The translations under genes were made by a program, and so were the position numbers. 64,000 bases of DNA from Octopus vulgaris (Eukaryota): NCBI GenBank assembly GCA_951406725.2, contig OX597816.1, positions 144,770,001 through 144,834,000 of the forward strand. The letters run 5' to 3'. Below are positions 8,701 to 58,853 of the stretch, piece after piece (positions within the stretch are counted from its first letter, which is position 1; the number at the start of each line of letters is the position of its first letter). The notes below the pieces were generated by a model, which was not told the DNA's origin, searched no databases, and was given only the letters and a program-made list of their open reading frames with translations.

Positions 8701-11700
8701 CACATTGTCCCAGTCTAGTCAGCTGGGAAAACTTAGTTGTCTTGTCGCATTCTGTGTTACACTGAATCTCCATGATGAAAATGAGGAATACGTTAAGGAT
8801 ACGAGTGTCTGTGGACTTCTTAAAGACTTTCACGTTAATTTCCTGAGTAATATCTTGTGCTGATCAGAACCTTCGTGGTGGAGACCGACAGAGTGCCAGT
8901 TATATATATATATATATATATATATATATATATATGAATCTATAAATATATATGTGTACACAGAGAAACATTGCACACTTACACATACACACACATACAG
9001 GATACTTAACAACGTGTTCAAGAGCATCTGAGGTTGCAGATATGTCTCTTCGAGTGATAAATAGAAAAAACTCTTTAAAATAATAGATGCAAAAAAAAAA
9101 AGAAAAGCGAACACTCAATACAGCGGAAAATTATAAAATTTTAAAATATAACCGTTAACACAAAATCGGTCATTATTGAACGTCTCTTATTGATTCTCTT
9201 GAAGCTGGTGACACAACAAACAATGTGAAAGTCACTGTGCTTTGCCAGTAAGCTACCAGGTAGGAACCAATCGTTTTATTATCTAAGATATATTAATGAA
9301 TATATATGCATATTAGTGTGTGTGTGTGTGTGTGTGTGTGTGTGTGTGTGTGTGTGTGTTTGCCTGTATGTCCATGTGCTTGTATCTGTGTGTGTTTGAG
9401 TGTGTGTGTGTGTGTGTGTGAAAACCCAAAAGATTAAATCAACTTTTAATGTACTTACCGACACATTTCCCCCTCTTGATAACATGTCCTTTCTTACATT
9501 TACACACACGATCTCCATTTACCACTTGACACACAGAATATTTATGACAAGGTCGTGATATTCTAAGTCTGCCATTGTTCCTACATGAAATTTTCCTTGA
9601 GCAATCGTCCAACAGGAAGCTTGAACCTCGCTAGTAAAAAGATTAATCAGGCAAACATATCTATATTGTGTGTGTGATCGCACAGAATAGTTGTTAAGAT
9701 ATTTACATGTATACGAGAATGTTAGCATTTGGATATATACGAAAGAGAAATGCAAATAACTGATAAATAGTTATTGGGCTATACATTCGATTATAAATAT
9801 TTAAGGCACATATAAATCTGTTTTACTCCAATTTAAGGTATATCAAATGTTATAATAGCAGTATGGAATTATTTTCTTTTATGTCCTTAAAATATGTATA
9901 TGCATAATGATATATGTGTATGTGAATGAATGGGTGTGAGCGCACGTGCATGTGAATGTGTGAATTGATGTGTGTCTGCGTGGATATGGGTGAATATTTT
10001 GAGCCCGTCATTATATTTAATTCGCATGTTTGAAAATGTTCTTCACCGTAAAAGAATATGAAACAAAATCATTTAACTGTTTCATCAAAACCAGCATTGA
10101 AATAAATTTGCGTATTTGATTAATAAACTATTTGATTAATAAAGTTTAGTATTTTCCAACTCACTATAGGCAGACGTACGCTGTTACAGATACTATAAAA
10201 TAGCATATATTAGTTGTACAAATAGATATGTACCCATCGTTTATTAGATACTTCTAGATCTTATGCTTGGCTCTATGAATATAAACATATTCCTGATTAA
10301 CAGTTTTATTCATGACGCTCCATTGTTTTCCTATGCGAGAGTGAGTGTTTTGTAAACTGATTACAGTTAAATTGTTATGAGATTTATCATGACTGGAAAA
10401 TATTTCATAGTATAAAGCATTTGTTAAAGTTGCATGCGTTGTACTTACTTTCATGTATAATCCCTTGTATTTACAGCCACATCTTGTGGATGGAACACAT
10501 TCTGTCCCACTAAGTATGAATCCCTTTTTGCATACACAACCTTCTGTAAATTTTCTAATGCGAGGGATTCTTCTATTAGAGCATGAGGGTTGATATATAG
10601 GAGTGGAGAACTTATACACCATGTTTTTAGGGCACTTTAATTCTGCGTGGACAAGAATAGATAAAACATTTAATGTTTTGTTATTGTATAACAAGCAGTA
10701 TAAATCAATGATTACACTGATTGGAATGTGCAGACACGAATATCTTATAATAAATCGCAATGTGTTGCCTGCCGCACACGCGATGAAAGAGAGACTGAAA
10801 AACCAAACACAGAGGGTATGAGCGACAGGCAGAGACGCTAAATGCAGTCCAGCTATAGTAAAAGGATTTGCTGGCATATTCATGAAAATTAAATTGAAAA
10901 CTTTTATTTCAAATTATATTTATCAGATCCATATATATATATATATATATATACAGAGAGAGAGAGAGAGAGCAGAGAGAGAGAGAGAGAGAGAGAGAAA
11001 GAGAGAGAGAGTGTGAAAAACAGAGTTAGTGGTTATGCTAAACGACTAAAAGATAAAATATCCCTATGTACTATCGGTATCCGTTACCCGTGTTAGTGCC
11101 GGGCCCTGATATGCAGACACAGTATGCACGTAAAGTGCAGGTAACAACAGGATAAACAAAAGTGTATCAAGAAACAAATACAAATATTCAGAAAATGGAG
11201 AAATTTTCAGATTAAGAAACACGTCGTTTGGAACAAATTTATTGCTTATTTTTTTATACAAATCATGACATAAAAAATAGGTGACGTAACAAATCTTACG
11301 GCCGTTTCCGTATCCTTTGCCAAACGCTGTCTATAAATTTATTGCGAAAATAAAATTCTTCATCTTCAAAGACATTCGATTTAACACGTCGATTTTCATC
11401 AGAGTAACAAGCAAGAGCATACAATATAAACAAAGTGAAGAAGAAATAGGAAAGAAATCATGGCCTAGAAAATAAGTCTAGAAGCCCAATATGTCAAAAG
11501 CAAATAATCTACCATCTTTGAGCTACAAGGTCCGTTGTTTAAATTGGAAGCTCTTGTTTTTTACTCTTATGAAAATCCGTGCATTAATTCGAATGTCTTA
11601 TGAAGATGAAGAATTTTATTTTCGTAATCATTTATAGACAGCGTTTGGTAACGGATGAGGAAACGGCCGTAAGATTTGTTACGTCTCCTATTTGTTATTT

Positions 11701-58853: not shown

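What the first reader, a model, noticed from the sequence alone, without database searches (positions are those of the whole stretch)
9459..58853. Strongly polycationic multi-VWA + VWD-C8-TIL protein: candidate glue, egg-coat or antimicrobial mucus component
Seen: each 189-aa VWA exon has about 42 K/R against about 8 D/E (hand count), yet keeps an intact MIDAS and terminal Cys residues; the VWD, C8, TIL and EGF-like exons are also visibly K/R-rich. Known: VWD-C8-TIL assemblies are the polymerising modules of mucins, FCGBP and zonadhesin, and VWA domains occur in invertebrate adhesive and matrix proteins. Inference: a secreted polycation that could bind anionic glycans or microbial surfaces (egg cement, skin or sucker mucus). 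Tandem VWAs placed N-terminal to an FCGBP-like cassette is an unusual architecture.
Basis: partly seen in the sequence, partly recalled or inferred. Interest (0 to 1): 0.8.

Follow-up and report, generated by a model that had tools for sequence, protein, structure and literature searches.

The report
Octopus polycationic VWA bead-string protein
This is part of an expressed octopus gene for a predicted secreted protein built of many near-identical, extremely positively charged folded domains, which likely works as an electrostatic cross-linker of sugar-rich mucus or glue, though its tissue and partner are untested.

Summary
Observation confirmed. Five 567-nt VWA exons (41-42 K/R, 8 D/E, pI 11.4-11.5, intact MIDAS) splice in frame to one VWD-C8-TIL-TILa/EGF cassette. 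The window is the middle of a gene matching Octopus sinensis LOC118762594: signal peptide, VWA array, D-assembly, second VWA array, second D-assembly, two PAN domains. Spliced transcripts exist. The VWA net charge (+0.18 per residue) exceeds all 996 control VWA domains, is held at +33/+34 in two VWA types that are 20% diverged, and octopus paralogues are near neutral, so charge looks selected. Corrections: the second VWD copy beside the N-gap is probably an assembly overlap; linkers are 6-21-nt micro-exons (three RNA-confirmed); there is no PTS, CGLC or cystine knot and no evident spare cysteine, so it is not a polymerising mucin; VWA plus D-assembly is shared with paralogues, Argonauta and pearl oyster. 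Array size is 5 plus at least 6 in O. vulgaris models against 2 plus 1 in O. sinensis models. An abalone protein shows a parallel cationic VWA array. Likely role: multivalent cross-linker of anionic gland secretion. It was not found in skin-mucus or ink tables where readable. Tissue unknown.

The parts
58287..58853 (-). VWA exon 1 (type A; first of the array in the window), MIDAS intact, net +33
57243..57263 (-). 21-nt linker micro-exon (Pro/Val-rich); copies at 49974-49954, 42685-42665, 35506-35486, 28290-28270 and a one-base variant at 20762-20742
   Evidence: AG/GT-bounded; matches the RefSeq isoform linkers; not shown by read letters here
52365..52379 (-). 15-nt linker micro-exon (Thr-rich); copies at 45092-45078, 37911-37897, 30695-30681
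   Evidence: matches the RefSeq linker between VWA1 and VWA2
50998..51564 (-). VWA exon 2
43709..44275 (-). VWA exon 3 (identical to exons 2 and 5)
36530..37096 (-). VWA exon 4
29313..29879 (-). VWA exon 5
26573..59502 (.). Tandem array of about 7.2-kb units (VWA exon, two micro-exons, decayed mariner-type transposase, microsatellites)
24558..24811 (-). VWD exon a with GDPH motif (identical copy at 17281-17028)
22057..22364 (-). VWD exon b with CGDC motif (identical copy at 14845-14538)
14423..21941 (.). Second copy of 21942-29368 ending at the 100-N gap inside a cut VWA exon; probable unmerged contig or haplotype overlap
13286..13557 (-). C8 exon
   Evidence: RNA loose end joins it to the TIL exon
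10449..10642 (-). TIL exon (reduced, 6-Cys TIL plus the start of TILa)
9459..9630 (-). TILa/EGF-like exon
   Evidence: spliced to the TIL exon in 4 of 4 runs
7680..7691 (-). 12-nt micro-exon of the downstream linker
   Evidence: RNA loose end in 3 of 4 runs equals the joined micro-exons
5954..5959 (-). 6-nt micro-exon
2733..2747 (-). 15-nt micro-exon leading to the second VWA array, which lies beyond window position 1
   Evidence: (12 of its 15 nt shown)

Best explanation
The gene encodes a predicted secreted bead-on-a-string protein of folded, strongly cationic VWA domains and two VWD-C8-TIL cassettes that likely cross-links anionic sulfated or acidic glycans and glycoproteins into a cohesive gel or cement in a specialised octopus gland secretion. 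Shown: exon structure, splicing of the 3' exons, charge, MIDAS residues. Predicted: signal peptide, VWA fold, intramolecular disulfides, GDPH self-cleavage with the halves held by disulfides. Inferred mechanism: each VWA is a +33 bead on a short Pro/Thr linker; a dozen such beads bind polyanions multivalently (complex-coacervate or double-network behaviour), the MIDAS adds metal-bridged binding to carboxylates, the PAN domains may add glycan or protein binding, and valency changes by gain or loss of whole 7.2-kb exon units. It would be the cationic cross-linker, not the gel backbone.
For: Charge above every control domain. Type A and B VWAs differ at 38 of 188 positions yet net charge is +34 against +33. 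Against the near-neutral paralogue P0113, 31 of 40 charge-changing differences raise the charge (binomial P=7e-4); 4 of the 8 remaining acids are conserved in 72-100% of 29 other VWAs; only 1 of 42 K/R sits in one of the 61 hydrophobic columns. AlphaFold pLDDT 89.9; best fold match is mussel byssal PTMP1, TM 0.89. Single hydrophobic stretch at the N-terminus. Spliced contigs in 4 of 4 runs. Near-neutral paralogues are identified by peptides in O. vulgaris skin mucus (PMC10138644 Table S1), so the family is secreted into mucus. Precedents: flatworm Mlig-ap1 (K/R-rich, VWD-C8-TIL, EGF; cohesive, blocked by heparin; PMC6410801); snail and slug gels of cationic protein plus anionic polymer (PMC9873654); zonadhesin/FCGBP-like proteins in limpet pedal mucus (PMC7333891).
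Against: No binding, tissue or protein-level evidence for this gene. It has 0 hits in the readable 3,654 rows of the skin-mucus PSM table, where paralogues are present, and 0 in the readable part of the ink tables, although it should give 81 distinct 7-30-residue tryptic peptides. Linear heparin-binding motifs are not enriched over paralogue P0125 (0.42 against 0.41 per 100 aa). Almost no PTS, only 2 N-glycosylation sequons in the window model and 3.6% Tyr, so no mucin-like or DOPA-like signature. The closest solved VWA relatives are collagen-associated matrix domains, which fits an internal matrix role as well.
Confidence: 0.55

Rival explanations
1. Narrow case of the main reading: it is a protein component of the oviducal-gland cement that strings octopus eggs together and fixes them to the den.
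For: The gland makes and polymerises such a cement, and zonadhesin-annotated transcripts are up at the fertilisation stage in O. maya (PMC8976471). Not found in readable skin-mucus or ink tables.
Against: The O. maya transcripts are known only by Swiss-Prot hit (ZAN_MOUSE, ZAN_PIG); octopus has several zonadhesin-like paralogues, and orthology could not be tested. The authors read them as sperm protein.
Confidence: 0.22
2. Collagen- or fibre-binding matrix stiffener like mussel PTMP1 or matrilins, acting through MIDAS in an internal matrix, cuticle or sucker lining.
For: Best solved relatives are collagen VI alpha3 and PTMP1; MIDAS and terminal Cys intact.
Against: Matrilin-like and collagen-VI-like VWAs are near neutral; the charge gain is unexplained by collagen binding; the paralogues are mucus proteins.
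Confidence: 0.17
3. Antimicrobial or agglutinating barrier protein that binds anionic bacterial surfaces or releases cationic peptides.
For: pI 10.9 and about +226 for the 1,410 residues in the window; FCGBP is the closest solved relative of the D-assembly.
Against: Charge lies on a disulfide-closed fold, not in a cleavable peptide; not seen in readable skin-mucus rows; no functional data.
Confidence: 0.12
4. Male reproductive adhesive (spermatophore cement body) or sperm-binding protein, as the 'zonadhesin-like' label suggests.
For: D-assembly homology to zonadhesin; rapid repeat turnover is common in reproductive proteins (recalled).
Against: No MAM, mucin or transmembrane part; the 411-aa cassette is identical between the window and the O. 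sinensis model, unlike fast-evolving gamete recognition proteins.
Confidence: 0.08
5. The five-copy array is inflated by assembly error, and the true protein has about three VWAs as in the O. sinensis models.
For: A false-looking duplication lies in the same window; units differ by only 0.33-0.69% outside microsatellites; O. sinensis isoforms carry 2-3 VWAs.
Against: All four complete units differ pairwise (17-36 substitutions in about 5,180 sites), more than the 7 non-microsatellite substitutions in the 7.4-kb overlap, and lie in gap-free sequence; two haplotypes cannot give four versions; collapse in the other assembly is as plausible; similar arrays occur in Argonauta and abalone models.
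Confidence: 0.15

Closest known systems
Octopus sinensis LOC118762594 (XP_036357277-90; auto-named von Willebrand factor-like, zonadhesin-like or uncharacterized) and O. vulgaris CAI9720130.1 + CAI9720129.1
   Same: Same gene; the 411-aa cassette is identical to X1; CAI9720130.1 has this window's five VWAs, CAI9720129.1 the downstream half.
   Different: Automatic models only; no paper found by gene id or accessions. The O. vulgaris models split the gene, truncate the VWAs and miss the micro-exons; VWA counts are 5 + 6 complete against 2 + 1.
Octopus paralogues LOC115209496 (P0113), LOC115229549 (P0125), P0059/P0130; Argonauta P0142, P0257; Pinctada P0093
   Same: VWA with EGF and/or VWD-C8-TIL, often PAN; the octopod VWAs form one clade (96/95; 88/86); two are in skin mucus.
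   Different: Their VWAs are net +7 to +10, not +33.
Haliotis rufescens LOC124110407 (P0152)
   Same: Seven identical cationic MIDAS-type VWAs (41 K/R, 15 D/E) on short Pro/Thr linkers, then many identical K/R-rich EGF repeats.
   Different: No VWD-C8-TIL or PAN; falls outside the octopod clade, though a joint clade is not rejected (AU p=0.124). Also uncharacterised.
Macrostomum lignano Mlig-ap1 (PMC6410801)
   Same: Secreted K/R-rich protein with VWD-C8-TIL and EGF; cohesion by charge, blocked by heparin.
   Different: Charge is in long K/R-rich repeat regions, not on folded VWA domains; no VWA reported in the passages read.
Vertebrate FCGBP (PMC10880436, PMC11796319)
   Same: GDPH-bearing VWD-C8-TIL-E assemblies; best solved match of the cassette.
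   Different: FCGBP has 7-13 VWDs, no VWA, and dimerises through C-terminal VWD cysteines; here two assemblies, VWA arrays, PAN C-terminus, strong positive charge.
Mussel PTMP1
   Same: Tandem MIDAS VWAs with terminal Cys in an extracorporeal material; best fold match.
   Different: Two VWAs only, about 31% identity, no D-assembly.

Membership tests
Gel-forming mucin (MUC2/MUC5 type) | Long PTS glycodomain | tested here: not met
   S+T 12.8%; linkers of 10-13 aa
Gel-forming mucin (MUC2/MUC5 type) | D1-D2-D'-D3 head with CGLC motifs and spare D3 cysteines; C-terminal cystine knot (definition recalled) | tested here: not met
   0 CGLC, 2 CGDC, even Cys per non-PAN domain, PAN-PAN terminus
FCGBP | GDPH-bearing VWD-C8-TIL-E assemblies | tested here: met
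   2 GDPH; Pfam; FCGBP best solved match
FCGBP | N-terminal IgGFc-binding domain, 7-13 tandem VWDs, C-terminal VWD dimerisation | tested here: not met
   No PF17517 hit, two VWDs, PAN terminus; FCGBP features from PMC11796319 abstract
FCGBP | Actual Asp-Pro self-cleavage | not testable with these tools
   Motif present; cleavage needs protein work
Zonadhesin | MAM domains, mucin stalk, transmembrane anchor | tested here: not met
   No MAM hit; only N-terminal hydrophobic window
von Willebrand factor | D1-D2-D'D3-A1A2A3-D4-C-CK order (recalled) | tested here: not met
   Order is SP-(VWA)n-D-(VWA)m-EGF-D-PAN-PAN
MIDAS-type VWA (PTMP1/matrilin/integrin I-like) | DxSxS...T...D and Rossmann fold with terminal Cys pair | tested here: met
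MIDAS-type VWA (PTMP1/matrilin/integrin I-like) | Metal-dependent collagen or ligand binding | not testable with these tools
   needs a binding assay
Mollusc zonadhesin/FCGBP-like secreted D-assembly proteins | Signal peptide plus VWD-C8-TIL-TILa-EGF cassettes with assorted accessory domains | tested here: met
Cationic cohesive adhesive proteins (Mlig-ap1-like, functional class) | Secreted, strongly cationic, with D-assembly and EGF | tested here: met
   compared with PMC6410801 passages
Cationic cohesive adhesive proteins (Mlig-ap1-like, functional class) | Made in adhesive gland, present in the glue, needed for cohesion | not testable with these tools
   run tissues are coded; no proteome hit

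The most novel reading that the evidence does not exclude
Molluscs have evolved, at least twice (octopus and abalone), a class of 'folded polycation' glue proteins: strings of near-identical supercharged MIDAS VWA domains joined by micro-exon linkers, whose valency is set by a domain-scale exon copy-number array. In Octopus vulgaris this gene (at least 11 VWAs in two separately homogenised arrays) is the protein cross-linker of the egg-string cement.
Probability: 0.2. Interest if true: 0.78.

Novelty: new variant of a known kind. Interest (0 to 1): 0.52.

Why it matters
It gives a concrete candidate for the cationic half of a cephalopod gel or cement, a material described in the paper read only by its gland of origin. 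It is a natural supercharged fold (+33 on 188 residues) with a near-neutral paralogue for comparison, so the role of charge and valency can be tested directly and may guide wet-adhesive design. It also shows how public annotation fails on such genes: split model, false duplication, missed micro-exons, discordant repeat counts.

Tried and rejected
No whole genome is held, so the 5' exons and the second array were read only from public protein models. Two-VWD model rejected: frameshift with 40 stops (that run drew the VWD-a exon 3 nt long, which does not change the frame). Signal-peptide and N-terminal micro-exons not found in 58854-64000. RNA support for VWA-to-VWA splicing and array size was not obtained. 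Contig depths in the four runs (1350, 1222, 23, 2.9) hint at tissue-restricted expression but the tool warns against that use, so they are not counted as evidence. Linear heparin-binding motifs not enriched. No Rfam match. No paper holds the gene id or six accession stems; searches listed no paper on this protein by title or abstract; a posterior-salivary-gland paper has none of four terms in its main text (PMC7693380). The 2024 skin-mucus supplement could not be read and two others were cut, so absence there is weak. Convergence with abalone not statistically secured. Earlier-findings look-ups empty. AT-bias as the cause of K/R richness rejected: paralogues of the same genus are near neutral and acids are purged as well.

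Full report
What is in the window. The window is AT-rich, microsatellite-laden animal DNA. On the minus strand lie five 567-nt VWA exons, one per tandem unit of about 7.2 kb, then VWD (two exons), C8, TIL and TILa/EGF exons, all with AG/GT boundaries and compatible phases. Pfam confirms VWA, VWD, C8 and TIL above cut-off, with TILa and EGF_3 below it. Each VWA has 41-42 K+R and 8 D+E, pI 11.4-11.5. With micro-exons, the window's model is 1,410 aa without a stop, 299 K+R, 67 D+E, pI 10.9.

Which gene. The C8 exon matches Octopus sinensis LOC118762594 at 100%, and the 411-aa cassette is identical to isoform X1. That model reads signal peptide, VWA, VWA, VWD-C8-TIL-TILa-EGF, linker, VWA, EGF, VWD-C8-TIL-TILa-EGF, PAN, PAN; the only hydrophobic 19-residue windows start at positions 1-7, so secretion is predicted by inspection (no signal-peptide program was run). 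Two consecutive O. vulgaris predictions, CAI9720130.1 and CAI9720129.1, correspond to this window's five VWAs plus VWD and to the downstream half with six complete VWAs of a second type. The window is thus most likely O. vulgaris and shows the middle of one gene; both ends lie outside it. The O. sinensis isoforms carry 2-3 VWAs against at least 11 implied for O. vulgaris; whether that is biology or collapse in one assembly is untested.

Assembly artefact. 14423-21841 and 21942-29368 are 99.6% identical on either side of a 100-N gap, with 7 substitutions outside microsatellites. VWD exon b ends in phase 2 while VWA and VWD exon a start in phase 1, so using both copies breaks the frame. RNA contig lengths fit a single path: beyond the TIL exon, the X8, X5 and X14 contigs hold 834, 837 and 863 letters, and C8 + VWDb + VWDa is 834 (only 30 of those letters were shown, and they match the C8 exon end). 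I read this as an unmerged overlap (about 85%). The array units differ pairwise by 0.33-0.69% outside microsatellites and by 0-6 bases in the exon, in gap-free sequence, which favours a real, recently homogenised array.

Expression and micro-exons. 20 of 24 listed runs hold part of the VWA exon. All 4 runs laid show the 818-nt intron between TIL and TILa spliced out, and 3 of 4 continue with 30 letters that equal three micro-exons of 12, 6 and 15 nt at 7691-7680, 5959-5954 and 2747-2733. Each array unit has a 21-nt and a 15-nt micro-exon that give the linker seen in RefSeq; RefSeq isoforms differ largely by skipping such pieces or whole VWAs. Read support for the VWA-VWA junctions was not obtained.

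Is the charge special? Among 996 VWA domains of 148 other proteins from the best 150 hits, the median net charge is -0.016 per residue (SD 0.036); 7 exceed 0.10, all in one abalone protein, and none exceeds 0.15 (P0081, this gene's own model, was not in that set). Among 119 D-assembly homologues none exceeds 0.10, against 0.143 here. The hits are ranked by similarity and favour multi-domain proteins, so this is not a census. The type A and B VWAs differ at 38 of 188 positions with 9 charge-changing differences that nearly cancel; against paralogue P0113, 31 of 40 charge-changing differences are upward (P=7e-4); K/R avoids core columns (1 of 42); four of eight acids are the conserved structural and MIDAS ones. 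AlphaFold on an 8-row alignment gives a confident VWA fold (pLDDT 89.9), closest to mussel PTMP1 (TM 0.89). In trees the cationic VWAs group with near-neutral octopod VWAs (96/95; 96; 88/86), so the charge was probably gained on this gene's own branch. The unnamed fragment P0002 (83% in C8, net +0.117) suggests a cationic orthologue elsewhere.

What it is not. It lacks PTS, CGLC, cystine knot, MAM, the IgGFc-binding domain and a membrane anchor; mature cysteines are even in every domain except the two PANs (5 + 5). So it is not a mucin, zonadhesin, FCGBP or VWF, and covalent mucin-type polymerisation is unsupported. Both VWDs keep GDPH, which in FCGBP self-cleaves and stabilises the domain (PMC10880436, abstract and section 2.4 read); FCGBP dimerises through its last VWD (PMC11796319, abstract), which has no counterpart here. 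VWA beside a D-assembly is not unique: it occurs in P0113, P0125, P0059/P0130, Argonauta P0257 and Pinctada P0093.

How it most likely works. A secreted chain of about a dozen +33 beads is suited to bridging polyanions. Precedents: flatworm Mlig-ap1, K/R-rich with VWD-C8-TIL and EGF, is the cohesive glue protein and heparin blocks attachment (PMC6410801, passages); snail and slug gels pair cationic protein with anionic polymers (PMC9873654, passages); zonadhesin/FCGBP-like proteins occur in limpet pedal mucus (PMC7333891, passages) and are candidates in oyster larval adhesive (PMC6337334, passages); a slug-glue paper names VWA domains in its title (seen only in a reference list). Near-neutral paralogues LOC115209496, LOC115229549 and LOC115209190 have peptides in O. 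vulgaris skin mucus (PMC10138644, passages and the stored 3,654 rows of Table S1). I therefore commit to a multivalent electrostatic cross-linker of an anionic gland secretion, with MIDAS as a second binding mode (0.55). All binding steps are inferred.

Evidence against and open points. The gene has no hit in those skin-mucus rows, nor in the stored part of the ink tables, which use the same database (PMC10142993, supplement search only); both files were cut, and the supplement of PMC11431876 (passages read) could not be opened. This argues against bulk skin mucus or ink and for a restricted gland. The oviducal gland makes egg cement and has zonadhesin-annotated transcripts up at fertilisation in O. 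maya (PMC8976471, passages and supplement rows), but orthology is unknown. A PTMP1-like matrix role, antimicrobial action and a male adhesive remain rivals. Linear heparin-binding motifs are not enriched.

Parallel in abalone. Haliotis rufescens LOC124110407 has seven identical cationic VWAs on short Pro/Thr linkers followed by many identical K/R-rich EGF repeats. It falls outside the octopod clade, but a joint clade is not rejected (AU p=0.124), so convergence is favoured, not shown.

Novelty and verdict. The gene is in databases under automatic names; searches by gene id and accessions found no paper and topic searches listed none on it, within an open-licence library only. Domains, family and the cation-polyanion glue principle are known. 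New are the supercharged folded VWA, two separately homogenised exon arrays, micro-exon linkers and the abalone parallel. New variant of a known kind; interest 0.52.

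Noticed in passing
window 14423-29368: 7.4-kb near-identical duplication across a 100-N gap; probably a false duplication, and the public O. vulgaris model CAI9720130.1 carries a repeated VWD fragment from it. The copies differ by one base in the 21-nt micro-exon (Pro or Thr).
   Followed up: yes
window 7691-7680, 5959-5954, 2747-2733 and array micro-exons: Phase-1 micro-exons of 6-21 nt; several have an A-rich stretch just before the acceptor AG instead of a plain pyrimidine tract. 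They code Pro/Thr linkers and are skipped in some RefSeq isoforms.
   Followed up: partly
window about 19500-20400 and the same place in each unit (27.0-27.9k, 34.2-35.1k, 41.4-42.3k, 48.7-49.6k, 56.0-56.9k): Decayed mariner-type transposase (Pfam Transposase_1) in the intron after every VWA exon, so it was inserted before the array expanded.
   Followed up: partly
window 59500-64000 and short pieces in the introns: Broken non-LTR retrotransposon remains (zf-RVT hit below cut-off at 62510-62833); homology with the array units stops at 59502.
   Followed up: partly
window 10642-10449: The TIL has 6 cysteines instead of 10; by the recalled TIL pairing, two whole pairs are lost, one of which paralogue P0059 keeps.
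   Followed up: partly
protein P0152 (Haliotis rufescens LOC124110407): 3,005-aa secreted-type protein with 7 identical cationic VWAs and dozens of identical K/R-rich EGF repeats; a strong glue candidate in its own right.
   Followed up: partly
proteins P0142, P0257 (Argonauta hians), P0125 (O. sinensis): Related octopod proteins with VWA-EGF arrays or K/R-rich EGF repeats; the family expands modules by tandem duplication repeatedly.
   Followed up: partly
window 58853-58287 against P0012: The window's first VWA keeps some first-copy residues seen in the O. sinensis model but is much closer to its neighbours (6 nt) than the O. sinensis first copy is (94% amino-acid identity), which suggests gene conversion within the array.
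   Followed up: partly
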